From an uncultured virus (IMG/VR IMGVR_UViG_3300028797_000153) (taxonomy: Duplodnaviria; Heunggongvirae; Uroviricota; Caudoviricetes): a DNA stretch of 64,000 bases. Under the pieces are notes generated by a model that saw nothing but the letters and a program-made list of their open reading frames with translations, was not told the DNA's origin and searched no databases. The DNA lies in IMG/VR virus record IMGVR_UViG_3300028797_000153. One strand, 5' to 3'. This document shows positions 781 to 17,494 of the stretch, piece after piece (position 1 is the first letter of the stretch; each line of letters starts with the position of its first letter). Both the position numbers and the translations under genes were made by a program.

Positions 781-782
781 TT

Positions 783-1191: not shown

Positions 1192-1193
1192 TC

Positions 1194-1355: not shown

Positions 1356-1430
1356 CCTCCTGTAGCTCAACAGTTAGAGCGGGCGCCTTATAAGCGTCAT
1401 ACCTTGGTGCGACTCCAGGCAGGAGGACCA
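1356..1430 (+). tRNA. tRNA-Ile(TAT)
   Basis: Cloverleaf, loop CTTATAA, CCA. Confidence 0.85.
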
Positions 1431-1446
1431 ATAATAAAAAATATAT

Positions 1447-1460
1447 GCTAAATTAAAATG
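1447..1460 (+). promoter_or_regulatory. GCTAAATTA motif, putative phage-specific (late) promoter; also at 2114, 14832, 29248, 34777, 41389, 47883, 47979, 51501, 55207, 61929
   Basis: 11 exact intergenic copies seen, mostly at starts of virion-gene operons. Confidence 0.7.
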
Positions 1461-1475
1461 CGAGGAGAGAACAAA

Positions 1476-1562
1476 ATGATGATTAGAAGAAGTTATCAAT
1501 TGAGCCAATTATCAGGTTTATGTGGTCATAACCAATTTTTGTTTTACTCCAATCGCGATTAA
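1476..1562 (+). CDS. Leader peptide 2 (Gln/Leu codons, 28 aa) MMIRRSYQLSQLSGLCGHNQFLFYSNRD
   Basis: GAGGAG RBS; TCCAATCGC (1548-1556) complementary to terminator arm GCGATTGGA. Confidence 0.75.
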   Translation: MMIRRSYQLSQLSGLCGHNQFLFYSNRD

Positions 1563-1594
1563 ATAGAATAAGCTTAAAGTATAATATATAATTT

Positions 1595-1633
1595 AATGAG
1601 CAGCGATTGGAAAAATTGTTGCTCATTTTATTT
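1595..1633 (+). terminator. Attenuator terminator 2
   Basis: AATGAGCAGCGATT/AATTGTTGCTCATT 14-bp stem + T-rich tail. Confidence 0.8.
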
Positions 1634-1659
1634 ACAAAGCAAAAATTCTATGGTATAAT
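1631..1659 (+). promoter_or_regulatory. Sigma-A-type promoter
   Basis: TTTACA-17 nt-TATAAT with upstream TG. Confidence 0.7.
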
Positions 1660-1668
1660 ATTAAATAC

Positions 1669-1743
1669 AGGGAAGTAGCCAAGTGGTAAGGCATGAGACT
1701 TTGACTCTCACATTCGAAGGTTCGACCCCTTCCTTCCCTGCCA
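1669..1743 (+). tRNA. tRNA-Gln(TTG)
   Basis: Cloverleaf, loop CTTTGAC, CCA. Confidence 0.92.
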
Positions 1744-1745
1744 AT

Positions 1746-1830
1746 GCTCTGGTGGTGGAACTGGCATACACATGGCACTTAAAATGCCACGCCGTAAGGA
1801 TTGAGAGTTCAAATCTCTCCCGGAGCACCA
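1746..1830 (+). tRNA. tRNA-Leu(TAA)
   Basis: Cloverleaf with long variable arm, loop CTTAAAA. Confidence 0.92.
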
Positions 1831-1834
1831 TTAT

Positions 1835-1911
1835 GCTCCTCTAGCCCAACTGGCAGAGGCAATAAGCTCAAAACTTATTCAGTCTGAGTTCGAATCTCAG
1901 GGGGAGTACCA
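1835..1911 (+). tRNA. tRNA-Leu(CAA), short variable loop
   Basis: Cloverleaf, loop CTCAAAA, CCA. Confidence 0.85.
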
Positions 1912-1913
1912 TA

Positions 1914-2035
1914 AGAGCCTATGCTTATTTCTTAAGGACTGAAAATCCGCGTGTAGGTGGTTCAACTCCATCCCTTCCCGCCAAATATTTGGGAAGTGTA
2001 GCTCACCGGTAGAGCAGCGAACTATTAGCTAGGCC
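1914..2035 (+). ncRNA. Y-RNA-like module 4: circularly permuted tRNA-Phe(GAA) mimic
   Basis: GCCTA-T-GCT ... AGC-TAGGC; GGA-CTGAAAA-TCC, T arm, CTTCCC-GCCA, spacer, GGGAAG, D arm. Confidence 0.85.
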
Positions 2036-2152
2036 AAAAAATAAAAAATTTCAGAAATATATTTACAATTAATTAAAAATGTTGTATAATATATGTGAGC
2101 GTTAAAAATATACGCTAAATTATAATGGCGCAAAGCTAGGAAGGAAAAGATT

Positions 2153-2269
2153 ATGCAAAAACTATCTATCATGTCCCTTAATCGTGAACATAGTGATTCA
2201 GTATATTTCGGTTGCTGGAATATTTTTGCTACCATCGGATCATCTAGTTTTGAGCAGGTTAATGAATAA
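2153..2269 (+). CDS. Leader peptide 3 (38 aa) MQKLSIMSLNREHSDSVYFGCWNIFATIGSSSFEQVNE
   Basis: AGGAAGGA RBS; 2235-2250 pairs 16 bp with 2297-2312 (terminator 5' arm). Confidence 0.75.
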   Translation: MQKLSIMSLNREHSDSVYFGCWNIFATIGSSSFEQVNE

Positions 2270-2301
2270 ATAAATTAAAAACATTAACAAAAAATGAAAT
2301 T

Positions 2302-2332
2302 AGGTGGTCTGAATAAGATCACCTTTTATTTT
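2302..2332 (+). terminator. Attenuator terminator 3
   Basis: AGGTGGTCT/AGATCACCT stem + TTTATTTT. Confidence 0.8.
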
Positions 2333-2335
2333 ACT

Positions 2336-2421
2336 GGGTAGGTGGTAGAGTGGTCAATTACACCTGACTGTAAATCAGGCGCCACAGGCTTACGGTGGTT
2401 CGAATCCATCCCTGCCCACCA
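2336..2421 (+). tRNA. tRNA-Tyr(GTA)
   Basis: Cloverleaf, long variable arm, loop CTGTAAA. Confidence 0.92.
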
Positions 2422-2426
2422 GATAT

Positions 2427-2502
2427 GTGGACGTGAATCTGACGGTTTAGATGCTAGTCTGTGAAACTAGATTACTGAGTTCAACTCTCAGACATCCACC
2501 CA
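2427..2502 (+). tRNA. tRNA-His(GTG) with encoded G-1
   Basis: Loop CTGTGAA; G2427 opposite discriminator C. Confidence 0.85.
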
Positions 2503-2506
2503 AAAT

Positions 2507-2596
2507 GGTCTATTAGCTCAGTCTGGTAGAGCGGCCGACCAAAGTGTCGGTGACAAACAGCGCGCGAGTGCATTGGTTCAAATCCAATATAGACCA
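2507..2596 (+). tRNA. Atypical tRNA-like gene (8-nt anticodon loop CCAAAGTG, long unpaired variable region, no encoded CCA)
   Basis: GGTCTAT/ATAGACC acceptor, normal D and T arms. Confidence 0.65.
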
Positions 2597-2604
2597 TCGT
2601 ATAT

Positions 2605-2679
2605 GCTCCCATAGACAAGCGGTTAAGTCATGCGCCTTTCACGCGTATATCGCCGGTTCGAATCCGACTGGGAGTACCA
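2605..2679 (+). tRNA. tRNA-Glu(TTC)
   Basis: Cloverleaf, loop CTTTCAC. Confidence 0.9.
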
Positions 2680-2683
2680 AAAT

Positions 2684-2760
2684 GGGTCATTAGCTCAGCT
2701 GGTGGTAGCGACTGACTGTTAATCAGTAGGCCGAAGGTTCAAGTCCTTCATGACCCGCCA
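2684..2760 (+). tRNA. tRNA-Asn(GTT)
   Basis: Cloverleaf, loop CTGTTAA. Confidence 0.92.
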
Positions 2761-2764
2761 ATTT

Positions 2765-2838
2765 CCAGGCATAACTCAATGGTAGAGTGCACGACTGATA
2801 ATCGTGATATCTTAGTTCAATTCTAGGTGCCTGGACCA
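2765..2838 (+). tRNA. tRNA-Ile(GAT)
   Basis: Cloverleaf, loop CTGATAA. Confidence 0.9.
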
Positions 2839-2841
2839 TAT

Positions 2842-2915
2842 AGGAGTTTGGTATATTGGCCGTGCCTTGGTCTCCAAAACCAATGAAGTGAGTTCGATTC
2901 TTACAACTCCTGCCA
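2842..2915 (+). tRNA. tRNA-Trp(CCA)
   Basis: Cloverleaf, loop CTCCAAA. Confidence 0.88.
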
Positions 2916-2917
2916 AT

Positions 2918-2996
2918 GGCCCTGTAGCTCAGCCGTGGTGAGAGCACTGGTCTGAAAAACCAGGTGTCGGCGGTTCGACTCCGCCTGGGGCCACCA
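2918..2996 (+). tRNA. tRNA-Phe(GAA)
   Basis: Cloverleaf, loop CTGAAAA. Confidence 0.92.
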
Positions 2997-3046
2997 AATA
3001 GTTAATTTATTATAGATTAACTGTATAATATTATGTATTGCAACAT

Positions 3047-3123
3047 TGCGGGGAAGTGTAACGGTTTGCATCTGAGGCTCATAACCTCAGGGTAGTGAGG
3101 TTCAACTCCCACCCCCGCGACCA
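3047..3123 (+). tRNA. tRNA-Met(CAT), initiator-like
   Basis: TGCGGGG/CCCCGCG acceptor with weak 1:72 pair, loop CTCATAA. Confidence 0.82.
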
Positions 3124-3199
3124 GGACCGTTGGTGTAGCGGTTTACATGTCACACTGTCACTGTGAAGATGACGGGTTCGACTCCCGTACGGTCCGCCA
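3124..3199 (+). tRNA. tRNA-Asp(GTC)
   Basis: Cloverleaf, loop CTGTCAC. Confidence 0.92.
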
Positions 3200-3202
3200 C
3201 TT

Positions 3203-3287
3203 AGAGCCTATACTTATTTCTTAATGGTTATAGAAGGTTCGATTCCTTCACCGCCCTCTAACCCAGGGCAGTGATATTAGTTAGGCC
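3203..3287 (+). ncRNA. Y-RNA-like module 5 (T arm + acceptor-like hairpin)
   Basis: GCCTA-T-ACT ... AGT-TAGGC; GAAGG-TTCGATT-CCTTC then GCCCT/AGGGC. Confidence 0.75.
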
Positions 3288-3349
3288 AAAAAATTATTAT
3301 TTATAAAGGAGATTAAGTTTATGTAAGTATTAAAAAGGAGGGCATAACA

Positions 3350-3601
3350 ATGAGTTATAGCCGCAAACAATTTGATAAACATAAACTTAAAAAACTTGCC
3401 CATGATAGCTGTAATGGCTGGAAAGGCGGAGCTTATTATGACAGAAGAAAAACCTGTTATAGACGCTACTGGAAAAGTCATGGACATACTTCAAGATATA
3501 CTTATTATAAAAAGTATTATCACAAAAGAATGCGAAGATTTATTAACAAGTATGGTTGGTATTCTAAAAAGGAATTTGATATAATCTGGACTTGTTGGTA
3601 A
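3350..3601 (+). CDS. Small basic hypothetical protein
   Basis: AGGAGG RBS, 83 aa, K/R/Y-rich. Confidence 0.7.
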   Translation: MSYSRKQFDKHKLKKLAHDSCNGWKGGAYYDRRKTCYRRYWKSHGHTSRYTYYKKYYHKRMRRFINKYGWYSKKEFDIIWTCW

Positions 3602-3608
3602 AATAATT

Positions 3609-3684
3609 AGCTGGGTGGCCAAGTGGTTAAGGCACAAAGTTCATACCTTTGGGATCGTCAGTTCAAATCTGACCCCAGCTACCA
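3609..3684 (+). tRNA. tRNA-Met(CAT) (elongator Met or Ile2)
   Basis: Cloverleaf, loop TTCATAC. Confidence 0.82.
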
Positions 3685-3686
3685 TC

Positions 3687-3748
3687 AGAGCCGATACTTA
3701 TTTCTGTCTAGAGACAATTTCCTGCCACGAAATCCATATAGTTCGGCC
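3687..3748 (+). ncRNA. Y-RNA-like module 6 carrying a Gly(GCC) anticodon stem-loop
   Basis: GCCGA-T-ACT ... AGT-TCGGC; internal ATTTC-CTGCCAC-GAAAT. Confidence 0.75.
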
Positions 3749-3756
3749 AATAATAT

Positions 3757-3830
3757 GGCTTCTTAGTTTAAAAGGAAAACTGGATCCTTACAAGATCAGG
3801 ACGGTGGAGCGTTACCATCAGAGGCCACCA
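3757..3830 (+). tRNA. tRNA-Val(TAC)
   Basis: Loop CTTACAA, atypical T-loop AGCGTTA, CCA. Confidence 0.8.
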
Positions 3831-3835
3831 AATAT

Positions 3836-3910
3836 GCGGACGTAGGACAATGGTTAGTCCACTAGCTTGCCATGCTAGATATACGGGTTCGATTCCCGCC
3901 GTCCGCTCCA
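3836..3910 (+). tRNA. tRNA-Gly(GCC)
   Basis: Cloverleaf, loop TTGCCAT. Confidence 0.92.
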
Positions 3911-3915
3911 CCGAA

Positions 3916-4049
3916 GTGACTCTTCCTTATATCGTAAAGAATAAGCGGGTATTGCTTACCTGGGTCCAAAGCAACGGTTAAGCTGGCATTACCGAGAGTG
4001 CCAGAGAAGGTGTCTGTGGTTCACCTGAGGAGTTAGTCACCAAACCACA
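3916..4049 (+). ncRNA. Unidentified multibranch RNA with 3' pseudoknot
   Basis: GTGAC/GTCAC closure, four internal hairpins, loop TGTGGTT pairs with 3' AACCACA. Confidence 0.6.
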
Positions 4050-4053
4050 ATAC

Positions 4054-4128
4054 GCGGGTATCGTCCAATGGTTAGGGCCTCTGCCTTCCAAGCAGAAGAT
4101 ACCGGTTCGACTCCGGCTACCCGCTCCA
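4054..4128 (+). tRNA. tRNA-Gly(TCC)
   Basis: Cloverleaf, loop CTTCCAA. Confidence 0.92.
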
Positions 4129-4155
4129 TACTAAAAATAATTAAGGAGAAAAAGT

Positions 4156-4251
4156 ATGAAAACAATGAATTCACGAAGTCTAAGTTGTGGTCGCTGTAGT
4201 AGCAGTTGTTTTCATTCACTCAATTTTCTCCCAGTAGCTCAATCGGATTAG
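4156..4251 (+). CDS. Leader peptide 4 (Ser/Cys/Arg-rich, 31 aa) MKTMNSRSLSCGRCSSSCFHSLNFLPVAQSD, overlapping tRNA-Arg(ACG)
   Basis: AAGGAG RBS with the same AGGAGAAAAAG context as leader 1. Confidence 0.65.
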   Translation: MKTMNSRSLSCGRCSSSCFHSLNFLPVAQSD

Positions 4252-4305
4252 AGCATAACACTACGAATGTTAAGGTTGCAGGTTCAAGTCCTACCTGGGA
4301 GGCCA
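4228..4305 (+). tRNA. tRNA-Arg(ACG)
   Basis: Cloverleaf, loop CTACGAA. Confidence 0.92.
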
Positions 4306-4306
4306 A

Positions 4307-4381
4307 GCTTTGGTAGCCAAGTGGTTAAGGCCTCGGTCTGCAACACCGATATCGCGGGTTCAAATCCCACCCAAAGCTCCA
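4307..4381 (+). tRNA. tRNA-Cys(GCA)
   Basis: Cloverleaf, loop CTGCAAC. Confidence 0.92.
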
Positions 4382-4386
4382 TATTT

Positions 4387-4474
4387 GGAGGCATGGAGTA
4401 ATGGTATCTCAATACCCTGCTAAGGTATCCATCGGGCAACTGATGTCCGCGTTCGAATCGCGGTGCCTCCGCCA
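4387..4474 (+). tRNA. tRNA-Ser(GCT)
   Basis: Long variable arm, loop CTGCTAA. Confidence 0.92.
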
Positions 4475-4489
4475 AATGAAAGGATTTTT

Positions 4490-4795
4490 ATGAAAGTGTA
4501 TTTTATAGCTACAGCAAATAATATTAAAAAAGATAAGCTCGGTTGGATAGACTGGGGCAAATCACACAGAGTTGTTGGCTTTTTTGATAATTTAGAAGAT
4601 GCTAAAAAGGCTGTTGAAGATAATTGGTGTGATCTATATGAAAATGGCTACTATAAATATGCTATTATAGAAGAAAGGGAAGATGGTCTATACTCTACTT
4701 GTGATAATCCTATTTTCTATAAGTGGGAAGATGGTGGCTATAAAAAAATAAAAAGGCCAAGAGCAACTTATGGATTCTGTAATTTCACAATTTAA
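4490..4795 (+). CDS. Hypothetical phage protein
   Basis: GAAAGGA RBS before ATG 4490; the track start lies inside the tRNA. Confidence 0.8.
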   Translation: MKVYFIATANNIKKDKLGWIDWGKSHRVVGFFDNLEDAKKAVEDNWCDLYENGYYKYAIIEEREDGLYSTCDNPIFYKWEDGGYKKIKRPRATYGFCNFTI

Positions 4796-4796
4796 T

Positions 4797-4880
4797 ACCC
4801 AGATGGTGGAATGGTAGACACCCGTGGCTTAGAACCACGTGCCGAAAGGCGTGCAGGTTCAAATCCTGTTCTGGGTACCA
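4797..4880 (+). tRNA. tRNA-Leu(TAG)
   Basis: Long variable arm, loop CTTAGAA. Confidence 0.92.
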
Positions 4881-4900
4881 ATATAATAAAGGACTAATTT

Positions 4901-5653
4901 ATGTATTTTAAAATTCCAGAAGCTTTTATTAGAAACAGACGTGAATTATTTGCATTAATGGTTGCAACAGTTTCATCTATTCATGTAATTCAGCAACAAA
5001 TAGATACAACTAATTTAACTATTTCAGAAATGCAAGAATTTTTAGCTAAAAAAGGCTTTATAAAAGTTGTTCCAGATAAACCTACTACATTACAAGAGCT
5101 AATTAATAAGCTAGATATCGCAAGTACAGCTTTTGTTAAATTAGCAAATAATAAATATATTGGAATAGTTGCAAATACATATTATTATACAGAAAACTTA
5201 GACAGTATAAAAGTTGCTGAATATTATTTAAATACTGAATATGGCCACAATCTTAAATATAAATGTATAAAATGTGGAAATTGTTGTCGTGTATATGGCT
5301 CAAATGGTGGCGTAATATTTTCTGAAGAGGATATTAACAAAATAGAACAAAATACACCATATACAATTCGTGATAAAGTTGTATTGGTATCTAATAAAAG
5401 TAATAAAAAACTATATCATCTTAGCCTTAAAAATAACCAATGTGAGTTCTTAGATAAAGATAATAGTTGTAAGCTAATTAATACATTATCTGTTAATTGC
5501 CAACTACCTGTAATTTGTTATTTATTTAGAGCTGGTCGTGGTGCAGGTATTAATTTCTTTAGCTGCCCAGGTATTGGATTGCCTGATGGTGATAACTGGG
5601 ATATATTAGATGTATTTAATTGGATTGATAAATATTGTAAAGAATATCAATAA
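4901..5653 (+). CDS. YkgJ/CxxCxxCC cysteine-cluster protein
   Basis: KCIKCGNCC ... CEFLDKDNSC ... PVICYLF motifs. Confidence 0.7.
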   Translation: MYFKIPEAFIRNRRELFALMVATVSSIHVIQQQIDTTNLTISEMQEFLAKKGFIKVVPDKPTTLQELINKLDIASTAFVKLANNKYIGIVANTYYYTENLDSIKVAEYYLNTEYGHNLKYKCIKCGNCCRVYGSNGGVIFSEEDINKIEQNTPYTIRDKVVLVSNKSNKKLYHLSLKNNQCEFLDKDNSCKLINTLSVNCQLPVICYLFRAGRGAGINFFSCPGIGLPDGDNWDILDVFNWIDKYCKEYQ

Positions 5654-5654
5654 T

Positions 5655-5737
5655 GCGCAAGTGGTGGAATTGGTATACACGCAGGTCTAAGAAGCCTGTG
5701 CTTCGGCATAAGAGTTCAAGTCTCTTCTTGCGCACCA
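5655..5737 (+). tRNA. tRNA-Leu(AAG), A34
   Basis: Long variable arm, loop CTAAGAA. Confidence 0.9.
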
Positions 5738-5740
5738 TAT

Positions 5741-5827
5741 GGAGGGTTGTGATAATTGGTAGTCGGGCTGTCTTGAAAACAGTTGGGTCGCAAGGCCTTT
5801 AGGGTTCGAGTCCCTAACCCTCCGCCA
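5741..5827 (+). tRNA. tRNA-Ser(TGA)
   Basis: Long variable arm, loop CTTGAAA. Confidence 0.92.
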
Positions 5828-6355: not shown

Positions 6356-7291
6356 ATGGTTAAAGATGCATTAGGCGATAGAATGAAAGAATACTACGAA
6401 GGAGTTACTAAAACTAAGCTTGTTCGTAGAATGCCTGTTATTATTAGATTAGATGGTTGCCATTTCCATACTTTTACGCGTGGTTTTAGAAAACCTTTTG
6501 ATGAACTTCTTAATAAAACTATGCAAGCAACTATGAAATATCTTTGTGAAAACATCCAGGGAGTAGTTTTAGGATATACACAATCAGATGAAATTACTTT
6601 AATTTTGGTTGATTATGCTAAACTTGAAACATCTGCCTGGTTTGATTATGAAATCCAAAAGATTGTTTCAGTTAGTGCTGCTCTTGCTACATATGCTTTT
6701 AATAAATATTTTAATGAATTTTATCTTTATCAACTTGCTGAAAAATGTGGGGAAACAGATGAATTTGATTTAGTTTATGATAGAGCTCGTAAAAAAGGTG
6801 CTTACTTTGATAGCCGTGCTTTTAATATTCCGAAAGAAGAAGTTACTAATTGTGTTTTATGGCGACAACTTGATGCTGAAAGAAACTCAGTTAACTCATT
6901 AGGGCAAAGCTTATTCCCACATAAAGCTCTTCAAGGATTAAGTTGTAAAGCCCTTAAAGCTAAAATTGAAGAAGAAAAAGGCATTGTTTGGGGCAATCTT
7001 CCTACCGAACAAAAACGTGGAACTTGTTGCATTAAAAACAGGACTTATACTCTTCCTGATGGCCAAGTAGTTAAAGAAAAAGAATATATTAATTATAAAG
7101 GCCACTTTGGAACTTTCTATTTTGATGGTGATGGTTATTATTTCTTTTATAGGGACAATGAATCATATGAAGTCAAAAGCATTAAGCTTGAAGTAAAAGA
7201 GCATGCTGAATGGGTTATTGATAAAGATATTCCAAGATTTATTGATAGCGGCCGTGAATATATTGAAAAACTTATTAATGTAGGAGAATAA
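6356..7291 (+). CDS. Thg1-like (tRNA-His guanylyltransferase / 3'-5' polymerase) protein
   Basis: IIRLDGCHFHTFT, GYTQSDEI, FDSRAF, WRQLDAERNS motifs. Confidence 0.92.
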   Translation: MVKDALGDRMKEYYEGVTKTKLVRRMPVIIRLDGCHFHTFTRGFRKPFDELLNKTMQATMKYLCENIQGVVLGYTQSDEITLILVDYAKLETSAWFDYEIQKIVSVSAALATYAFNKYFNEFYLYQLAEKCGETDEFDLVYDRARKKGAYFDSRAFNIPKEEVTNCVLWRQLDAERNSVNSLGQSLFPHKALQGLSCKALKAKIEEEKGIVWGNLPTEQKRGTCCIKNRTYTLPDGQVVKEKEYINYKGHFGTFYFDGDGYYFFYRDNESYEVKSIKLEVKEHAEWVIDKDIPRFIDSGREYIEKLINVGE

Positions 7292-8251: not shown

Positions 8252-9094
8252 ATGGAAAAAGCTATTGTAGAATTTGGAAAAAGAATGGATGCTGCTGAAG
8301 ATAAGGCTTTACTTGTTGATTATGCTGAAGGCGCAACAAGAGTTTTAGATTTAGGAGCTGGTACTGGTAAGATTTCACGTGATATTGCCGAAAAATGGGG
8401 GGCTCATTGTGATGCAGTTGATATTCAGTTTAAAGATAATTGTCAAAATACAGATAAAGTTACTTACTATGGTATGAGTATTATAGACTTTCTTAGAACA
8501 TATAGTAATAAAAAATATGATTGTATTATTTTGTCTGCTATTTTACATGAATTAGATGCTCACACACTTAACTTTTTGAAAGAATATCTACCAATTATGA
8601 TGATGAAGAACTGTAGAATTCTTATTCGTGAGCCATTTTATGACAGTGCTTTAGGCCCAGTTCAAAAAGAAAATGCAGAAAAGTTTATTGACTTAGTTTC
8701 TAAAAATGTTTCTGCTGATAAAGCCTTTGAATTTTATTTTGCTACAAAGTTAAGTTTAGGTTGCAGTTTATTTAGCCGCCAGATTAACTTTGCTTCATCA
8801 GTAGATTGGGCTAACCTTGCATTTACTATTTCATATGGTGAACAAAGCTGGGAACGTGAAAAACATGAGTTTAGATATGCTTATAGTTTAGACTGGTGTA
8901 AAGATTTCTTCAATTTTACTAATAAAGAATTCCATGATAGTGTAGTTAGACCATTTACAGGTTTTCAAGTTTATCCAGTTTTAGATAGAACATATAAACA
9001 ACATTTTATTAATGTAGGTATTCCAGGTGAAGCTTTTGATTTAATTCAATATACTGGAATGATTGTAATTATTGACTATTCTAAAGGGGAATAA
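8252..9094 (+). CDS. Class I SAM-dependent methyltransferase
   Basis: VLDLGAGTG, YDCIILSAILHE. Confidence 0.85.
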   Translation: MEKAIVEFGKRMDAAEDKALLVDYAEGATRVLDLGAGTGKISRDIAEKWGAHCDAVDIQFKDNCQNTDKVTYYGMSIIDFLRTYSNKKYDCIILSAILHELDAHTLNFLKEYLPIMMMKNCRILIREPFYDSALGPVQKENAEKFIDLVSKNVSADKAFEFYFATKLSLGCSLFSRQINFASSVDWANLAFTISYGEQSWEREKHEFRYAYSLDWCKDFFNFTNKEFHDSVVRPFTGFQVYPVLDRTYKQHFINVGIPGEAFDLIQYTGMIVIIDYSKGE

Positions 9095-9095
9095 T

Positions 9096-9536
9096 ATGAA
9101 AAGATTAACACCAGAAGAAATAAAATTTGTAAAAGAAACTAAATTTACTCCAACAGTTTATCAATGTGATCAATATTATTTAACTTCATTTGATGACTAC
9201 ACTGACGCTGCTAAAGTTGCTAAAGAGAAGTATGGTGTAGATTTAGATAAATTTATTGCTAAGAATATTGCAGCAAGTTTAAATGATGCTGATGCCATTT
9301 CTTTAGATTATGTTGCTATTTATTTATTATATAGCTTCTTCACAAAAGATGAACTTGAAAAAATGACACCTAAAGAAGCTCTTAGCTGGCTTATGGAGTA
9401 TAGATATTATTTCGGGTTTAGAAAATGGGCTGAACAAGATGCAGCTAATGCTATTTATGATGCTATTGCTATTTATGATGGTGCTGCAGAGTTCTATGAT
9501 CAGCCAGATGGAAATGTTTGGTGTCGTGAAAAATAA
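9096..9536 (+). CDS. Hypothetical protein
   Basis: AAGGGG RBS before ATG 9096. Confidence 0.75.
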   Translation: MKRLTPEEIKFVKETKFTPTVYQCDQYYLTSFDDYTDAAKVAKEKYGVDLDKFIAKNIAASLNDADAISLDYVAIYLLYSFFTKDELEKMTPKEALSWLMEYRYYFGFRKWAEQDAANAIYDAIAIYDGAAEFYDQPDGNVWCREK

Positions 9537-9618
9537 TTTTTTTTGAAAAATTTTAAAATTTATTAGCTAAAATAATAATCAGCAGGAAAAAATAAATTTT
9601 CTGCTGTATAATATATAG

Positions 9619-10780
9619 CTAGTTACGCAGAAATGCGTTTCTATATATAAGATATATTAAGGCCAGACCCGACATGTTGAAATATCTAGGATGAGGTCGC
9701 CAATACAGCCTTAATATATATCCGGACTTATAGCCAGTAAGCCATATGACTAGACATGAGCTTACTCTTGAAAAGGCACAACGGGGTTTGGCAAGTAATA
9801 TCCACAACTAGTTATTAAAACTTGCTGGGCAAAAATAAGCATAAGTCCATTAACAACGAGGGCACGTTGTAAAATAACGAGTTTAGCCGAGTCTTATAGA
9901 CGGTATGGAGTCTGATATAAACCCATGCAACCCACATTCTTTATAGGAGGTATGGAACGCTAGAATAAATACTTTGGGATCTAGCTTATCTGGCCGGCCC
10001 AATGGTTAGTTTGGGGTGCAACTCCTCAACTGGTCTCAAAACACCCATGCAGCAGTAACCAGGGTGAATACTAGAACGTCAAAACGTGAAAGAGCCTGCT
10101 GCATTTAGAGAGTCGGAGTATTTACCGGCTGCGGGTTCGCCCGCTTCTTATTAGAGCTTAAAAAGCACTTGCACCATTATGAACTTCCGAGAAAGCAGAA
10201 GGTGAAGCTGACGAAAAGCCTAAGCGTCTATAAATAAAGTTTATTGGTAAATTTATGAAAACATAGGGTACTCACACCGAATGTTTCTTGCAGCAATGCG
10301 CTTAACTGGTGGGTTGGGGTTAAAGTTGTCTACCAATGTGAGAAAAACAACTGCTCCCTTGGCTAATTTAGTCCGGTAGGGAGATAATATAAGTTTAGGT
10401 GGCCCAGGAGGTATTTATTATTCCCCTCTCCCCAGAAACATAGTGAGGTCACCAGCCTATAATCAGGTATAGCAATGGCACCTGGATGCTATTATCAAAT
10501 AGCATAACTTACGAGGCCGCTTTATGCCGCCGCCCTATTGAGTTTCAACTCTGATAGGTCCAGAGGACGCCGAACGAAAGTTCTACTCCCGAAGAGACGA
10601 CCTAAGCATGTCCTTAAACTGCTTATTATAGAAGGAAAACTATACAACCCGTATGCACCCACTACTACGTTAATAAATGGGTATATTTATTTCCCGGTCC
10701 CTTAACGGCAGTTTCCAGTTTCTGTGAAACTAAATAATATAAGGACTGCAGGCAAATGAAGCAATTCACACTACCTGCTT
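9619..10780 (+). ncRNA. Cluster of small structured RNAs (unidentified)
   Basis: No credible ORF, GC-richer than coding DNA, successive self-closing stems, promoter at 9605. Confidence 0.6.
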
Positions 10781-10782
10781 AT

Positions 10783-11380
10783 TAGTTCCACCACCTGGTA
10801 CTGAATGTTGTTTGATAGTGAGCTGTGGTCAATATAAAAATATTGCAAGAGAAAGACGGCATAACAGCAATAACACAAAATAATCCGTCTCTCATTAATA
10901 TGTGTGTATCTATCAAGTAAGTGGACTACCTCAGCCTATTAAACGTCAGTTTAGCCTAAAGCTATTAATTAATAGGTAATTAACCAAGATTAAAATTGCG
11001 AAAACACTTATAGAAATATAAGCTACTTGGTATAGAGAGTGATAAAGCCAGGGAACTCCAGCCGTTATGGTTGCAAGGAGGGTTGAGCCTCCCGTCTGTT
11101 AATCGAAAAAGCCGGACTTCGCTAGTCTTGACGTTAAAGAACATCGATTCCGTTATAGTGTCTGGTAAAACTACAAAGAGAGCACAGGAGTTATACGTCG
11201 ATAGCCCATTTAGAGCGTTTGTGGGAATTGGGTAAGAAACTAACCGTGGAAATGTGCAGAGTCGGTGAAAACGTATATCCCAAGGCAATGTAAGAATTAT
11301 AGTAGGCCAGCCTGGCTGTTGATCATAGTTCTCGGGTAACGTTGTCCCTGTTCACAATGTCTTGTACTAACATTGTTTTT
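10783..11380 (+). ncRNA. Large ROOL/GOLLD-like ncRNA candidate, apparently circularly permuted
   Basis: ~600 nt with multiple stems and pseudoknots; blocks CTGAATG, ATGTGTGTATC, CTCAGCCT, GTGGAAATGTGCAG resemble ROOL as I recall it. Confidence 0.45.
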
Positions 11381-11475
11381 CTAATAAAATATAATAGGAT
11401 TTATATCCATGGCGATAAATCGTAAATCCTGGTTGCCTTCAAGTCCGAAATGACGTTAAACTATGGAGGTATAGA

Positions 11476-11706
11476 ATGTTAGGATTTACACTTTATGGAA
11501 CAACAGATGTTCCACATGAATATTACGTTTATGCTGATGGTGTAGATTGTAAACCAGCTTACTTCTTAACTAGAAAAGAAGCCGAAATCTACATGAATAA
11601 TTATGCTTCTTCACATGGTATTCAATTAGAATGCACTGAATGTGATAAGCATGAGCGTAAATATTCTAATCATAAGGGTGTTAGATTTTATATTAATAGA
11701 ATTTAA
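11476..11706 (+). CDS. Hypothetical protein
   Basis: GGAGG RBS, 76 aa. Confidence 0.7.
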   Translation: MLGFTLYGTTDVPHEYYVYADGVDCKPAYFLTRKEAEIYMNNYASSHGIQLECTECDKHERKYSNHKGVRFYINRI

Positions 11707-11736
11707 TGCCCTTAACAATTCATTTATAATTAGAAG

Positions 11737-11936
11737 AGATTCTAAATAATATTTACCTGAGCAGTACGACTTATGCCTGAAACCTGATATAAAGGAATCT
11801 TGGGTATGTCAGAAACAACTGACTATGACATAAGCAAAAAGGGCGGAAACTATACTTATTTCTTCAGTGCTTTAGAACAAATGATCTAAAAAGAAATAGG
11901 CTGCAAGTTAGTTAGTTCAAATATTATTTAGAATCT
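11737..11936 (+). ncRNA. ~200 nt RNA closed by a perfect 18-bp stem, containing Y-RNA-like module 7 (11845-11918)
   Basis: AGATTCTAAATAATATTT/AAATATTATTTAGAATCT; AACTA-T-ACT-TATTTCT ... AGT-TAGTT. Confidence 0.65.
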
Positions 11937-12012
11937 TTTTTATTTTTTTATTTACTTTTAAAATTTTTATTGTATAATATTAATGTGGATGAAAACTGAA
12001 AGGATCCACAAT

Positions 12013-12067
12013 AGAGCCGATACTTATTTCTGGTTATTTATAAGAATGTGTTAAAAACAGTTCGGCC
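12013..12067 (+). ncRNA. Y-RNA-like module 8 in the leader of the TerD-fusion gene
   Basis: GCCGA-T-ACT-TATTTCT ... AGT-TCGGC. Confidence 0.75.
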
Positions 12068-12074
12068 AAGTAAT

Positions 12075-12136
12075 TAAACAGCTTTTAATGTGTTAATACT
12101 TGGGGTAACTAGCATATTAAAGGCTGTTTATTTTTT
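12075..12136 (+). terminator. Leader terminator upstream of gene 12148
   Basis: 21-bp stem + TTTTTT immediately before the GGAGG RBS. Confidence 0.8.
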
Positions 12137-12147
12137 CGGAGGTCATT

Positions 12148-14121
12148 ATGACAAACATTCAAAAAATCTTAATTTCTAGACATTACTTACTTGCAGCTCC
12201 AATTGCTGAAGAAGATAAAGTAAAAGTTGCATATTATAATGCATATCTTTTAGCTAACTTTGGTATTGTAGTTGATAAGCCACAACGTTTAAGCGATATT
12301 AGCGTTAAAGAAATTGCTGATGTTTATAAGCTTAGTGTTCCAGCATCTTTCTACAAAAACCCACAAGATACTAAATATTTTTCTTGTGCAGAATTACTTA
12401 TTGAACAATTAGTTTCTTACTTTTTAGTTGAAACTGGCACAGGTATCTATAATAGAGTCGAGATCTTTGAAAAGAATCTCCCTGAATATAAGCAAGGTGA
12501 TGAACTTAAACTTCGTGAGTTCAAGATTTTAACTGCAGAAGAAGCTGATGTTGTTTTAGCTGATATTGCTAAAGCATACTGTGCTTATACTCGCCCATGG
12601 GCTCTTGATGAAGAAGAAGAATTTATCTGGTTATTTGAACATGGTTATTATCAAAACTTTGAAGTCGCATGTGGTGATAATGCTATTAAATTACTTGAAA
12701 AAGATGCTTCTTTTGCACGCTTTTTATTCAAAAAAGATTTAGTTAAGATTTCAGTTACTCGCTGCGGTGAAAAATCTAAACTTATGCTTGATGCTAAAAC
12801 AGCTGACCTTATTAGAGCAGCTATTCCTTATGTTAAGGATTGCCCAATGTCTAAAAAGCAAGCTAAGTATTTTAATACTTTAATTGCTAAAGTTGGTGCA
12901 CAAGGCAAAGTTAAAGAAGCCTCTAATGCTCGTTCACCATATAAAGCAGCTCAAGAAGCCCTTAATAAAGGTGATGTTTTAGGTGCAGCTAAGATTTATG
13001 CAGCTAATGGTTCTCTTTTAGAAAGAAACTTAAAGATGCTTATTTCAAGAGCTGACCCACAAACAGCTTTAGATATTTTAGGCTTACTTAAAGCTAAAAA
13101 TCCACTTGTTCTTTTCCAAATTATGTCCACATTAATGGCTGATAATGGGGAAGCTCGTACCTTTACATTTACTAAAAATAGATTAGTCAAACATCATATT
13201 GAAACTGAATATGAACATACTTGGCGTAAATCTAAGTTAAATGATGCCACAAGAAAGCTTATTCATGATGCTTGCCTTGTTAAAATTGAAGAGGGCTATC
13301 GTGCCTTTGATTCTTTAGGCAAAGTCTATATTTCACCAGATTTCTTCAAGATTGGTGTCCCAGTTAATACATCAGCTACTGGTAAAGGTATTGATGTATT
13401 ACCAACAAGCTCTAGACTTCCACTTCCAACAAATAAAGTTCGTACTTTCGTTTATTGGAAAGATGCATTTGATATTGATGCTTCCTTAATTTTTGTTGAT
13501 AATGTTGGCAAATTAAGCTACATGTATTTCGGCAACTATTCTGGAAAACCATTTGGTCATGATGTCCTATTTTCTGGCGATAATAGAAATCATACTGGCT
13601 CTGAATATTATGATATTGATGTTGAAGCTCTTCATAGAAGAGGCATTAGATATGTAATTCAAGCTTTCCATGGCTTCTGCTCTAATTTAAACCAAGGCGA
13701 AATTTATTGTGGTTATCAAAATAAAGAAAACTTTAATACACAAGCCTGGGACCCAAAAAACATTGAATTAAAAATTCATGTTAAGGGTGATACAAGAGCA
13801 TTTATGGCTTTTGCCTTAGATTTAGCAACTAATGAAGTTGTTATCTTAAATCAACTTTTAGACGAAGAATTAAGAGTTGTTAACGGTAAGAACTTTGCTC
13901 CAATTGCTAAGTTACTTGACCCAGCTCAACTTGAATTAAATGCTGGCTTAATTGCTTCATTTAGAGCAAGTGAAGTTGTTGCTACACCAGAAGAAGCTGA
14001 TGTTGTATTTGATGCTAATTTCAAACCAGAAATAGCTGAAGATGGCACTGCAATTCAAAAAGTTGTTAGACCATTTGAAGTTGAAAAGATTGTTGCATTA
14101 GCTAATGGTGCAAATATTTAA
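12148..14121 (+). CDS. Helical N-terminal region + TerD domain protein; probable Ro/TROVE(Rot)-TerD RNA-binding protein
   Basis: C-terminal YWKDAFDIDAS, FSGD, SEYYDID TerD-like motifs; long helical N-terminus; flanked by Y-like RNAs. Confidence 0.6.
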   Translation: MTNIQKILISRHYLLAAPIAEEDKVKVAYYNAYLLANFGIVVDKPQRLSDISVKEIADVYKLSVPASFYKNPQDTKYFSCAELLIEQLVSYFLVETGTGIYNRVEIFEKNLPEYKQGDELKLREFKILTAEEADVVLADIAKAYCAYTRPWALDEEEEFIWLFEHGYYQNFEVACGDNAIKLLEKDASFARFLFKKDLVKISVTRCGEKSKLMLDAKTADLIRAAIPYVKDCPMSKKQAKYFNTLIAKVGAQGKVKEASNARSPYKAAQEALNKGDVLGAAKIYAANGSLLERNLKMLISRADPQTALDILGLLKAKNPLVLFQIMSTLMADNGEARTFTFTKNRLVKHHIETEYEHTWRKSKLNDATRKLIHDACLVKIEEGYRAFDSLGKVYISPDFFKIGVPVNTSATGKGIDVLPTSSRLPLPTNKVRTFVYWKDAFDIDASLIFVDNVGKLSYMYFGNYSGKPFGHDVLFSGDNRNHTGSEYYDIDVEALHRRGIRYVIQAFHGFCSNLNQGEIYCGYQNKENFNTQAWDPKNIELKIHVKGDTRAFMAFALDLATNEVVILNQLLDEELRVVNGKNFAPIAKLLDPAQLELNAGLIASFRASEVVATPEEADVVFDANFKPEIAEDGTAIQKVVRPFEVEKIVALANGANI

Positions 14122-15223: not shown

Positions 15224-17494
15224 ATGCGTACCTTATTAATTACACGTGGTGCACCTGGTGCCGGAAAATCAACTTGGGTTAAAAATAATCATTTAGAAGA
15301 TTATACTCTTTGCCCAGATGATATTCGTATTATGTGTGCTTCCAGAGATCTTCAAGCTGATGGCCATACTGCTATTGCAAGAAATAATGAAGTTGAAAAA
15401 GAAACCTGGAAGATTATTTTTCAATTACTTGAATATAGAATGCAACGTGGTGAATTAACAGTATTGGATGCAACTGCCTCTAAAACAAAAGATATTCAAC
15501 AATATAAAGAATTAGCTGAACAATATAGATATAGAACCTATGTTGTTGATTTTACTGATGTTCCTCTTGAAACTTGCTTAAAACAAAATAGAATGCGCCC
15601 AGAAATGAAATGGGTTCCAGAAGAAAGCATTAAAAATATTTATGCTCGTTTTGCTACACAGCCAGTTCCAAGCAGAGTTGATGTAATTAAACCGGATGAA
15701 TTAGATAAAATCTTAGAAAAACCTATAGATTTATCTCAATATAGAAAAGTTGTTTTTATTGGCGATATTCATGGCTGTTATGATACTTTGATGCAATATC
15801 CTGATTTCAAAGAAGGACTTAAAGATGATACAGCATATATCTTTTTAGGCGATTTCGTGGACCGTGGCAATCAAAATGCTGAAGTCATGAAGTTTATCTA
15901 TTCTATTATGAATAAGCCAAATGTATGCTTGTTAGAAGGCAATCATGAACGCTGGCTTAGAGACTATGGAAATAATGTTCCAGCCAAATCAAGAGAGTTT
16001 GAAGACAAAACAAAACCACAACTTATTGCAGGCGGTTTTGACCAAAAAATGGCTAGAATATTCTATAGAAAAGTTCGTCAAATGTCTCACTTTATGTTTA
16101 ATGGTATAGAAGTTTTAGCTTGCCATGCAGGTATTCCACATATGAATAATAATTTAGTTTATTTACCAACAGAAGCTTTTATTCATGGTGTTGGAACATA
16201 TAATGACTACCAAACAATTGCTGAAACTTGGATGACTGAAACTAAAGAAAATCAATATTTAATTCATGGCCATAGAAATACACATGAAGATCCAACTGAA
16301 ATAGCTGATAGAGTTTATAATCTTGAAGGCAAAGTTGAATTTGGTGGTAATTTAAGAATTGTTGAACTTACTTCCGATACATTCAATGGTTGGGCTTTTG
16401 GTCACCCTGAAGTTGGTTTAGTTACTGGAACACACTGGAATATAGTTGAATTACATAACTGCCAACCAATTACTGAGGATGCTATTATTGAAGAAAGAAA
16501 AGTTGATACAGTTGAAGAAGCTATTGATTATCTTAGATTAAATAAATTTGTCCAAGAAAAACAATTAGGTAATGGAGTTTCTTCTTTCAATTTTACCCGT
16601 GAAGCTTTCTATGATGCTAACTGGAATAAACAAACTATTTTAGCACGTGGCTTATTCTTAGATACTGAAAATAAAAAGATTATGGCACGCTCATATGAAA
16701 AGTTTTTTAGAATTAATGAAGTTCATGAAACTGAAATGATTGCACTTAAAAATAGACTTCAATTTCCAGTCCAAGCCTATGTAAAAGAAAATGGATTTTT
16801 AGCAATAGTATCTTATGATTATAAAAATGATGATTTATTTATTGCTTCTAAGTCCACAAATAAAGGCGATTATGTTGAATATATTAAAGCTCAACTTGAA
16901 CCTTATAAAGAAAAATTATTAGACCTTTTAAGAACAAATTATAATGATGGTATTCCATGTTCAGCAGTATTTGAATGTGTTGATATTGAACATGACCCAC
17001 ACATTATTAAGTATCCAAAAAGCAAAATAGTATTATTAGATATTATTGAAAATACTTTAAATTATAAAGCTAGAACTTATTACTCATTAAAAGAGGCTGC
17101 TGCTTATATTGGCTGCCCGGTTAAAGAATTAGCATTTGAAATAAAAGATTATGATGAATTTAGAAATCTTTATAATGAAGCCCAAGATGAAGAATATAAG
17201 TATAATGGTGAATATATTGAGGGTTTCGTTTTTGTGGATGCTTCTGGTTTTATGACAAAATTAAAAACAGGTTATTATAATTTCTGGAAACATATGAGGG
17301 GCGTTGCTGATCAAACTCTTAGATGTGGAAATTATGGTAGAACTGGCGCACTTCAATCAGCCCAAGCTAATTATTTCTATGGTTTCTGTAGACAATTATT
17401 TAGAAATGATCGTGATAAAGAAACAAAATCTTATCCATATAAAACAGATATTATTTCGCTTCGTGAAAAGTATCTAGCTGAGTTTAGAAAATAA
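15224..17494 (+). CDS. Polynucleotide kinase + metallophosphoesterase + RNA ligase fusion (RNA end healing and sealing)
   Basis: GAPGAGKS P-loop, DAT; GDIHG/GDFVDRG/GNHE; ARSYEKFF, KENGFL, EGFV, KLK ligase motifs. Confidence 0.9.
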   Translation: MRTLLITRGAPGAGKSTWVKNNHLEDYTLCPDDIRIMCASRDLQADGHTAIARNNEVEKETWKIIFQLLEYRMQRGELTVLDATASKTKDIQQYKELAEQYRYRTYVVDFTDVPLETCLKQNRMRPEMKWVPEESIKNIYARFATQPVPSRVDVIKPDELDKILEKPIDLSQYRKVVFIGDIHGCYDTLMQYPDFKEGLKDDTAYIFLGDFVDRGNQNAEVMKFIYSIMNKPNVCLLEGNHERWLRDYGNNVPAKSREFEDKTKPQLIAGGFDQKMARIFYRKVRQMSHFMFNGIEVLACHAGIPHMNNNLVYLPTEAFIHGVGTYNDYQTIAETWMTETKENQYLIHGHRNTHEDPTEIADRVYNLEGKVEFGGNLRIVELTSDTFNGWAFGHPEVGLVTGTHWNIVELHNCQPITEDAIIEERKVDTVEEAIDYLRLNKFVQEKQLGNGVSSFNFTREAFYDANWNKQTILARGLFLDTENKKIMARSYEKFFRINEVHETEMIALKNRLQFPVQAYVKENGFLAIVSYDYKNDDLFIASKSTNKGDYVEYIKAQLEPYKEKLLDLLRTNYNDGIPCSAVFECVDIEHDPHIIKYPKSKIVLLDIIENTLNYKARTYYSLKEAAAYIGCPVKELAFEIKDYDEFRNLYNEAQDEEYKYNGEYIEGFVFVDASGFMTKLKTGYYNFWKHMRGVADQTLRCGNYGRTGALQSAQANYFYGFCRQLFRNDRDKETKSYPYKTDIISLREKYLAEFRK

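What the first reader, a model, noticed from the sequence alone, without database searches (positions are those of the whole stretch)
10783..11380. Candidate circularly permuted ROOL/GOLLD-like giant RNA
Seen: TAGTTCCAC/GTGGACTA and TTGATAG/CTATCAA close a domain (10783-10928), with a possible pseudoknot GCTGTGG/CCTCAGC. Next, CCTATTAA pairs with TTAATAGG (10936-10976) as a local hairpin, followed by ~400 nt of further structure ending in a hairpin plus T tract. From memory of ROOL RNAs (phage- and tRNA-associated, ~600 nt), blocks like CTGAATG...ATGTGTGTATC...CTCAGCCT are at the 3' end and AGGTAAT..CCAAG...CTTGGTATAG and GTGGAAATGTGCAG are in the 5' half. Here the order is reversed and the terminal P1 helix appears loop-closed. 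The family assignment is tentative.
Basis: inference. Interest (0 to 1): 0.75.

Follow-up and report, generated by a model that had tools for sequence, protein, structure and literature searches.

The report
New pseudoknotted phage RNA, not ROOL
This 600-base stretch of a large phage encodes a real, elaborately folded non-coding RNA, but it belongs to a family absent from the RNA catalogue searched and found among phage tRNA genes, not to the ROOL or GOLLD families.

Summary
Comparative data support four of the five proposed helices. The pseudoknot GCTGTGG/CCTCAGC is not supported. The ROOL/GOLLD assignment fails. Rfam gives no ROOL or GOLLD match even at E<=10, although the same models find a true ROOL on pMP118 (130 bits) and GOLLD in two related phages. 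A true ROOL has none of the core strings or recalled ROOL strings tested. What is there instead: window 10783-11092 is an expanded member of an RNA family absent from Rfam 15. Its core is CCACCACC-NN-GUAC ... GUGGA ... AAAGC-NN-GGGAACUCCAG, a hairpin, CUGC, and a hairpin with loop GUUGWG. I found 44 distinct sequences on phage and metagenome contigs. Covariation is strong: 98.5% of cells pair versus 28-51% in slid controls, and 0 of 500 shuffles reach it. The core varies from about 80 to 335 nt through insertions. It often sits among tRNA genes or has its own promoter and terminator. In the window a second structured domain (T, 11094-~11345) and a terminator (11354-11382) follow. A related phage has T, then a tRNA, then the core: a swap of modules, not a circular permutation. 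Function is unknown.

The parts
10783..11382 (+). Whole inferred transcription unit: pseudoknotted core RNA with expansions, T domain and terminator
   Evidence: Similarity to relatives begins at 10780-10783. There is no terminator between the core and T. A hairpin plus T tract lies at the end.
10783..10791 (+). P1 5' strand TAGTTCCAC (contains the invariant CCAC)
   Evidence: Pairs with 10921-10928. The core is invariant and the outer pairs covary across members.
10794..10798 (+). P2 5' strand CCTGG
   Evidence: Pairs with 11048-11052. The two middle pairs show 12 and 13 of 24 sequences changed on both sides. P2 interleaves with P1, which makes a pseudoknot.
10799..10920 (+). P3 domain: conserved ACTGAATGTTGTTTGAT, helix 10812-10818/10910-10916, variable insert 10819-10909
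   Evidence: Helix: 70 of 77 cells paired. The insert ranges from 12 to 108 nt among members. It is replaced by a shorter stretch in G001.
10921..10928 (+). P1 3' strand GTGGACTA
10929..10934 (+). Conserved CCTCAG with no supported partner
Evidence: Nearly invariant in the expanded class.
10935..10976 (+). P6 hairpin CCTATTAA/TTAATAGG closing a variable loop
   Evidence: 84 of 88 cells paired, 8 distinct strands.
10975..11030 (+). Invariant GGTAATTAAC, then P7 hairpin CCAAG (10984-10988) / CTTGG (11026-11030)
   Evidence: Invariant columns in A2. P7: 45 of 66 cells paired against a 48.9% control.
11031..11047 (+). Conserved joiner TATAGAGAGTGATAAAG (ends in the family-wide invariant AAAG)
11048..11058 (+). 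P2 3' strand CCAGG, then invariant GGAACT
11059..11073 (+). P4 hairpin CAGCC/GGTTG
   Evidence: 100% of cells paired in 24 sequences, 2 pairs with changes on both sides.
11077..11092 (+). P5 hairpin GGAGG/CCTCC with conserved loop GTTGAG
   Evidence: 5 of 6 pairs have changes on both sides. The model R1 match 11012-11102 scores 42.4 bits.
11094..11345 (+). T domain, a second structured module; conserved with G004 over 11094-11272
   Evidence: nhmmer 57 bits to G004. 6 of 31 predicted pairs are compensatory between the two sequences. It is the only true match among 37 IMG/VR stretches.
11354..11382 (+). AT-rich intrinsic-terminator-like hairpin ACAATGT/ACATTGT plus T tract
   Evidence: Read from the sequence. 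Not flagged by the scan, which demands 3 G-C pairs.
11367..11395 (+). Promoter-like site (CTAACA, 17 nt, TATAAT) for the next gene (ORF 11476-11706)
   Evidence: 10 of 12 matches. Six other members show the same order of terminator then new promoter.

Best explanation
Window 10783-11382 (+) is one transcription unit for a large structured non-coding RNA.

Its first 310 nt (10783-11092) are an expanded member of an RNA family that is not in Rfam 15. The family core is an H-type pseudoknot followed by two hairpins:
- P1: UCCAC pairs with GUGGA.
- P2: CC-NN-G pairs with C-NN-GG and interleaves with P1.
- P4: CAG...CUG.
- P5: a hairpin with loop GUUGWG.
- Invariant single-stranded stretches: CCACCA, AAAG, GGGAACUC.

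Insertions at two permissive sites enlarge the core from about 80 nt to about 335 nt. One site is the P3 hairpin inside P1. The other is the joiner between P1 and P2, which in the window holds P6 and P7.

A second structured module (T, 11094-~11345) follows, and then a terminator.

Shown: the family is real, the fold is conserved, the RNA is on the + strand, and it is not ROOL or GOLLD.

Inferred: the RNA is a stable trans-acting molecule. It is made either from its own promoter and terminator or by excision from tRNA-array transcripts by the enzymes that trim the flanking tRNAs. Its invariant unpaired nucleotides would form a binding surface for a partner in tRNA, translation or RNA-repair metabolism during infection. 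That role is like the one proposed for GOLLD, ROOL and Y-like RNAs. Whether the core and T stay joined after transcription is open.
For: Family and fold:
- 56 of 77 fetched loci carry S, M and the P5 hairpin. They give 44 distinct sequences, one of which (L139) is identical to the window and is not independent.
- On 24 of the 28 compact members, 17 pairs in P2, P4 and P5 are 98.5% paired, against 28-51% when the partner is slid.
- 76 cells have changes on both sides, against 22 +/- 4 in shuffles. 0 of 500 shuffles reach the covariation score.
- G-U pairs are common, which fixes the strand as +.
- Model R1 scores the window's 3' half at 42.4 bits (E about 1e-10) and its 5' half at 21.1 bits.
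- P1, the P3 extension, P6 and P7 are supported in the expanded class.

Autonomous gene:
- L032 has an extended -10 promoter just upstream.
- L032, L090, L112, L122, L039 and L042 have a terminator right after P5 and then a new promoter.
- The window has a terminator-like hairpin at 11354-11382 overlapping the promoter-like site 11367-11395.

tRNA context:
- 23 of 43 distinct loci have tRNA or tmRNA genes in the flank, always on the same strand.
- 9 loci abut one within 3-21 nt.
- The window has 32 tRNAs at 11-5824.

RNA-repair genes nearby:
- Thg1-like and Pnkp-like genes in the window.
- cREC_REC, AAA_33 kinase, cytidylyltransferase-like and metallophosphatase genes in the L030/L039/L042/L047 lineage.

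Other:
- Not coding: no Pfam or PHROGs family matches any ORF in the gap.
- GC is 40-45% against about 30% in the flanks.
- T is structured: 6 of 31 pairs are compensatory against G004.
Against: - No direct evidence of transcription, ends or stability.
- The MFE z-score of the region is not significant.
- No promoter was found directly upstream of 10783. A CTKCTTATTAG repeat at 10144, 10619 and 10775 may instead mark processing sites.
- The function is inference from context only. The link to RNA-repair genes rests on two or three lineages and may simply reflect clustering of RNA genes in large phages.
- P1 is weak or absent in some compact members (L089, L030 type), so the pseudoknot may not be universal.
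- T has only one homologue, so its structure rests on two sequences.
- The family could already be listed without a name in a catalogue whose supplements I could search only in part.
Confidence: 0.75

Rival explanations
1. It is a cis-acting leader (riboswitch or attenuator). The core is a sensor domain, and the terminator after P5 is the expression platform that controls the downstream genes.
For: In L032, L090, L112, L122, L039 and L042 a terminator follows P5 within about 10 nt, and an ORF on the same strand follows. In the L039 type the downstream genes form an RNA-repair cassette. The core has riboswitch-like complexity, with many invariant unpaired bases.
Against: A new promoter (-35, 17 nt, TATAAT) lies between the terminator and the ORF in those same loci. 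Nine loci abut tRNA or tmRNA genes with spacers of 3-21 nt and have no platform. Downstream genes differ between lineages. In the window about 290 nt of T lie between P5 and the terminator.
Confidence: 0.1
2. It is a self-cleaving or processing ribozyme that helps mature tRNA-array transcripts, in the manner of the HDV-like theta ribozymes of gut phages.
For: P1 and P2 interleave around a small hairpin, and the optional insertion site between P1 3' and P2 3' recalls the P4 position of HDV-like ribozymes (fold recalled and from passages of PMC10879173). The RNA starts 3-7 nt after a tRNA 3' end in L034, L046, L120 and L132.
Against: The joiner that would correspond to J4/2 has an invariant AAAG and no conserved cytosine. 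P1 and P3 are weak or absent in some members. The most conserved part lies 3' of the pseudoknot. Many members are stand-alone genes with their own promoter and terminator. No ribozyme family of Rfam matched.
Confidence: 0.08
3. It is a highly diverged or circularly permuted ROOL or GOLLD RNA.
For: The size is similar (598 nt; ROOL averages 581 nt, PMC5737381, passages seen). The setting is a phage near tRNAs. Runs labelled bovine gut hold the stretch. Short strings resemble the GOLLD 3' consensus. Two related phages carry GOLLD, and none of 10 related records has both RNAs.
Against: No ROOL or GOLLD match at E<=10 in either half of the region or in relatives with the other block order. Both models work on controls. 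A true ROOL has none of the core or recalled ROOL strings tested, aligns at shuffle level (30 against 29.5) and gives no nhmmer hit. R1 scores 8.2 bits or less on loci holding a true ROOL and a true GOLLD. The L003 GOLLD lacks the core strings.
Confidence: 0.04
4. It is decayed protein-coding DNA or foreign DNA without function. The helices are chance.
For: ORFs of 102 aa (10980-11288, -) and 54 aa overlap the region. Helices in the single sequence are not above chance.
Against: Strong compensatory covariation across 24 sequences. Conserved blocks are separated by insertions of very different lengths. No protein family matches.
Confidence: 0.02

Closest known systems
GOLLD RNA (Rfam RF02032)
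   Same: A large ornate RNA of phages placed in or near tRNA arrays. Its domains can be separated by a tRNA: passages of 10.1101/2024.12.08.627333 say tRNAs sometimes lie in the GOLLD linker, and G004 has T, tRNA, core. GOLLD occurs in two phages of the same group.
   Different: No covariance-model match. The conserved core sequence and fold differ, and the GOLLD of L003 lacks the core strings. The new family also has minimal forms of about 80 nt.
ROOL RNA (Rfam RF03087)
   Same: Similar size, phage and tRNA context, and pseudoknots (passages of PMC5737381).
   Different: No model match, although the model finds the pMP118 ROOL at 130 bits. No shared strings or alignment. The paper reports only 10 highly conserved nucleotides for ROOL; this family has 31 invariant columns in 24 sequences.
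Phage T4 stable RNAs rnaC and rnaD (species 1 and 2)
   Same: Small stable RNAs annotated directly after tRNA-Arg in a phage tRNA cluster. That their function is unknown is my recollection. The new RNA abuts tRNA-Arg in 3 loci.
   Different: R1 with filters off gives under 3 bits over rnaC and rnaD, and the core strings are absent from their sequence. The likeness is one of context only.
HDV-like theta ribozymes of gut phages (PMC10879173)
   Same: Pseudoknotted RNAs next to phage tRNAs. The order of interleaved helices is similar.
   Different: Theta ribozymes are minimal HDV-like ribozymes that lack P4 and depend on a catalytic cytosine (passages). Here no conserved cytosine lies in the matching joiner, and the strongest conservation is outside the pseudoknot.
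Y RNA-like YrlA (Rfam RF02553)
   Same: A modular structured RNA linked to RNA-repair genes. Weak YrlA-like matches occur elsewhere in these phage loci.
   Different: Those matches are not at the position of the new RNA, and no YrlA match covers it.

Membership tests
ROOL (RF03087) | Match to the Rfam covariance model at or above 99.1 bits | tested here: not met
   No match at gathering score or at E<=10 over 9000-12200. The model is sound: it scores 130.4 bits on pMP118.
ROOL (RF03087) | Sequence blocks shared with a canonical ROOL, in any order | tested here: not met
   Of 18 strings tested, only the generic GTGGA occurs in the pMP118 ROOL. Local alignment scores 30 against a shuffle mean of 29.5. 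nhmmer finds nothing.
As a proxy, G004 with its natural T-first order gave no ROOL match at E<=1.
ROOL / GOLLD | Phage-borne and near tRNA genes | tested here: met
   32 tRNAs at 11-5824 on the same strand. The relatives are IMG/VR viral contigs.
GOLLD (RF02032) | Match to the Rfam covariance model at or above 150 bits, in particular its conserved 3' domain | tested here: not met
   No match. The model finds GOLLD in L003/G002 (156.3 bits) and G006 (155.3 bits).
HDV-like / theta ribozymes | Nested double pseudoknot with an invariant catalytic cytosine in J4/2 | tested here: not met
   The equivalent joiner is invariant AAAG preceded by a variable base. P1 and P3 are missing in some members.
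tRNA / tmRNA | Cloverleaf or tRNA-like domain detected by ARAGORN or Rfam | tested here: not met
   ARAGORN finds none after 5827 in the window. Rfam tRNA and tmRNA models give nothing at E<=10.
New family (CCACCA-GGGAAC pseudoknot RNA, model R1) | S block CCACCACC-NN-GUA upstream of AAAGC-NN-GGGAACUCCAG, with NN/NN complementary | tested here: met
   Window: CCTGG 10794-10798 pairs with CCAGG 11048-11052.
New family (CCACCA-GGGAAC pseudoknot RNA, model R1) | P4 hairpin CAG...CUG and P5 hairpin with loop GUUGWG; significant R1 score | tested here: met
   Window 11012-11102 scores 42.4 bits, E 1.4e-10. P4 is 11059-11073 and P5 is 11077-11092.

The most novel reading that the evidence does not exclude
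The core and the T module are two domains of a new class of giant multi-domain phage RNA. Like GOLLD, it tolerates a tRNA between its domains. It assembles, in cis or in trans, into a higher-order RNA particle, or it acts as a new catalytic or adaptor RNA for tRNA processing or repair. The same 1.9-kb gap holds further large structured RNAs (module B, 10149-10553), so this phage would carry a whole island of unknown ornate RNAs.
Probability: 0.12. Interest if true: 0.85.

Novelty: new variant of a known kind. Interest (0 to 1): 0.62.

Why it matters
Large, highly structured bacterial and phage RNAs are rare. The known ones (GOLLD, ROOL, OLE, raiA) proved to have remarkable architectures, yet their functions remain unknown. 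This is a further family in the same genomic niche, phage tRNA arrays. It has a compact conserved core of about 80 nt, natural size variants up to about 600 nt, strong covariation and dozens of natural sequences. That makes it a tractable system for asking what phages do with ornate RNAs next to their tRNAs. It is small enough for probing, crystallography or cryo-EM, and it has clear permissive insertion sites. It also shows that sequence strings recalled from memory can point to a real RNA while naming the wrong family.

Tried and rejected
- Flanking small proteins (154 aa and 76 aa) found no relatives in IMG/VR.
- The gap found nothing in 50,697 GenBank phages. Two compact representatives also found nothing at E<=1.
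- The gap found nothing within +/-8 kb of the homologues of the 657-aa and methyltransferase genes, because gene order is shuffled. Homologues appeared only when whole records were searched.
- The GC-rich gaps beside the 657-aa gene in the relatives are homologous to each other but not to the window.
- A hidden second copy of T or of S/M in G004 (the tandem-copy explanation) is rejected: local alignments are below shuffles.
- A CCTATTAAACG string after P5 in G004 is at chance level.
- The scan with the T motif gave 37 stretches, of which 36 were chance matches in coding sequence.
- The six matches in bacterial genomes are either a different element (GTGTCCACNAAAGCGGGGGAACTCCAG, no hairpins) or chance. 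Rfam finds nothing there.
So there is no read-level evidence. The ten RNA runs with small shares (0.10-0.18) are not evidence.
- Earlier notes of the scan: nothing to show.
- A literature search for the motif string returned 23 papers. The 15 listed are unrelated by title, so the string is probably a primer there; I did not open them.
- The contig ids of six motif-bearing loci were not found in the searched supplements of PMC10690425. Three files were not searched.
- No record has both GOLLD and the new RNA (0 of 10), but the numbers are too small to test.
- Accession CP000234 is not in the plasmid collection. NC_007930 was used instead.

Full report
**Setting.** The window is AT-rich DNA (32% GC) with 32 tRNA genes at 11-5824 on the + strand. 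Downstream lie:
- a Thg1-like gene (6356-7291), a DUF5662 gene and a methyltransferase;
- a stretch with no long ORF (9537-11475);
- a 76-aa ORF and a 657-aa ORF;
- a Pnkp-type kinase-phosphatase-RNA-ligase gene (15224-17494).

GC rises to 40-45% over about 9650-11450, against about 30% in the flanking genes. Relatives of the 657-aa protein lie on IMG/VR viral contigs of up to 233 kb, so this is a large phage. No whole genome is held for the window.

**The observation.** All quoted strings are at the stated coordinates. Alone they prove nothing:
- Inverted repeats of 7 nt or more are no more frequent than in shuffles (9 against 12.0 +/- 4.2).
- The MFE z-scores are +0.33 and -0.82.

**The family claim.** Rfam 15 gives only tRNAs at gathering score. 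At E<=10 over 9000-12200 it gives nothing for ROOL or GOLLD in either half of the region. The models are sound:
- GOLLD is found in a related phage (L003, 156.3 bits) and in G006.
- ROOL is found on pMP118 (130.4 bits, full length).

That canonical ROOL carries none of the core strings and none of the six recalled ROOL strings tested; of the 18 patterns only the generic 5-mer GTGGA occurs. It aligns with the window RNA at shuffle level (30 against 29.5) and gives no nhmmer hit. Two recalled strings resemble the 3' end of the GOLLD consensus, but the L003 GOLLD has none of the core. ROOL is absent from five related phage records. I could not submit the rearranged sequence.

**Finding relatives.**
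- Synteny failed because gene order is shuffled.
- A search of whole related records with the gap DNA showed that the gap is modular:
  - 9739-10103 is 90% identical to a stretch of G001.
  - 10149-10553 is 82% identical to another stretch of G001, in the opposite order.
- I named the blocks S (10783-10816), M (11036-11092) and T (11094-11272).
- In G004 the order is T, tRNA-Arg, S, M, with spacers of 10 nt or less and no hidden second copies.

**The family.**
- A scan of IMG/VR with the M motif gave 20 stretches, of which 14 were real by eye.
- A stricter composite pattern gave 57 metagenome stretches and 6 bacterial-genome stretches. The bacterial ones are another element or chance.
- S lies 23-281 nt upstream of M in 56 of the 77 loci. 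These give 44 distinct sequences: 28 compact and 16 expanded. One of them, L139, is the window's own sequence.
- I aligned 24 of the 28 compact sequences. I left out L091 and L135 (near-duplicates) and L102 and L108 (an extra hairpin).
- P2 (S with M), P4 and P5 give 98.5% paired cells, against 28-51% when slid. There are 76 double-change cells against 22 +/- 4, and 0 of 500 shuffles reach the observed score.
- P1 (UCCAC/GUGGA) has covarying outer pairs. It interleaves with P2, which makes a pseudoknot.
- Model R1 scores the window at 42.4 bits (3' half) and 21.1 bits (5' half). The 256-nt insert splits the match.
- R1 finds one copy in 4 of 10 related records.
- Rfam has nothing at the motif in 8 loci at E<=0.1.
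- GenBank phages have no BLAST match.

**The expanded class.** I aligned 11 of the 16 expanded sequences, leaving out the five of intermediate length.
- The alignment shows extra invariant blocks: ACUGAAUGUUGUUUGAU, AUCAAGUAAGUGGACUACCUCAGCCU, AUAGGUAAUUAACC and GGUAWAGAGAG.

**Gene structure and context.**
- L032 has its own extended -10 promoter.
- Six members have a terminator right after P5 followed by a new promoter. These are autonomous RNA genes, not leaders.
- The window repeats this layout after T: a hairpin and T tract at 11354-11382 and a promoter-like site at 11367-11395.
- 23 of 43 distinct loci have tRNA or tmRNA genes in the flank, all on the same strand.
- Nine loci abut one within 3-21 nt, one of them a phage tmRNA.
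- One lineage has an RNA-repair cassette just downstream.

**The T module.** T has one homologue (G004), with 6 compensatory pairs of 31 predicted, around a conserved loop UGGAAAU..GCAGAGU.

**Comparison with known RNAs.**
- GOLLD and ROOL share the niche but not the sequence or the fold.
- T4 rnaC and rnaD share the position after tRNA-Arg but not the model.
- Theta ribozymes share a pseudoknot beside tRNAs, but they depend on a catalytic cytosine for which there is no counterpart here.

**Literature.**
- I saw passages of 10.1101/2024.12.08.627333, PMC5737381, PMC10879173, PMC10690425 and PMC9241854.
- I saw only the search listings of the other papers returned.
- PMC10690425 lists thousands of unnamed candidate RNAs. 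I searched six of its supplementary files for six contig ids without a match, and three files were not searched. The family may therefore be listed there without a name.

**Verdict.** It is not ROOL or GOLLD and is not shown to be circularly permuted. It is an expanded member of an uncatalogued pseudoknotted family from phage tRNA arrays, joined to an accessory module whose order is swapped in a relative. Its function is unknown. The most likely role is a stable trans-acting RNA in tRNA or RNA-repair biology.

Noticed in passing
window 10149-10553: Module B of the same gap is 82% identical to a stretch of G001. It folds with 98 predicted pairs, 12 of which carry compensatory double changes and none of which is broken (two sequences only). 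It is probably another structured RNA of about 400 nt, and Rfam has no match for it.
   Followed up: partly
window 9739-10103: Module A is 90% identical to G001, where it lies after module B rather than before it. It ends in a GC hairpin (GCGGGTTCGCCCGC, 10131-10144). It has no Rfam match and no ORF.
   Followed up: partly
window 10144-10154, 10619-10628, 10775-10785: The motif CTKCTTATTA(G) recurs three times. At least two copies (10144, 10775) lie just before a module start (10149, 10783). It may mark processing sites or promoter elements.
   Followed up: no
L003 10623-10774, 11848-11981, 12484-12679, 12898-13057; L012 11594-11742; L006 14038-14197; L048 1165-1281: Several tRNA matches in related phages span 117-196 nt, so these tRNA genes carry long inserts (introns or embedded elements).
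   Followed up: no
L003 9981-11274, L006 9984-10503 and 11023-11642, L008 10564-12061, L014 9984-12133: A different conserved, GC-rich non-coding block with internal repeats of about 75 nt lies between the 657-aa gene and the tRNA array in other relatives. It is not similar to the window's gap.
   Followed up: partly
L089 (upstream of the RNA); L095 and L117 (downstream): ARAGORN calls a phage-encoded tmRNA (tag AKNNNRGYSLAFAA) 21 nt upstream of the new RNA in L089. In L095 and L117 a sequence resembling a tmRNA 5' end follows the RNA.
   Followed up: no
G002 (L003 16531-17044) and G006 (L157): Canonical GOLLD RNAs (156 and 155 bits) lie in the tRNA arrays of two related phages. None of the 10 related records carries both GOLLD and the new RNA.
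   Followed up: partly
L030, L039, L042, L047: Just downstream of the compact RNA lies a cassette of a cREC_REC (cyclic-phosphate processing receiver) protein, an AAA_33 kinase, a cytidylyltransferase-like protein and a metallophosphatase. It is a putative phage RNA-repair module.
   Followed up: partly
L144, L146, L147, L148, L093, L106: A separate repeated element, GTGTCCACNAAAGCGGGGGAACTCCAG, occurs in genomes labelled Thermoleophilaceae, Solirubrobacteraceae and Polyangiales and in metagenomes. It shares an 18-nt string with the RNA but has no hairpins, and its nature is unknown.
   Followed up: no
window 9946-9975 and 11465-11494: A 30-nt direct repeat (77% identical) copies the ribosome-binding site and start of the 76-aa ORF into the gap, where it opens only a 3-codon frame.
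   Followed up: no
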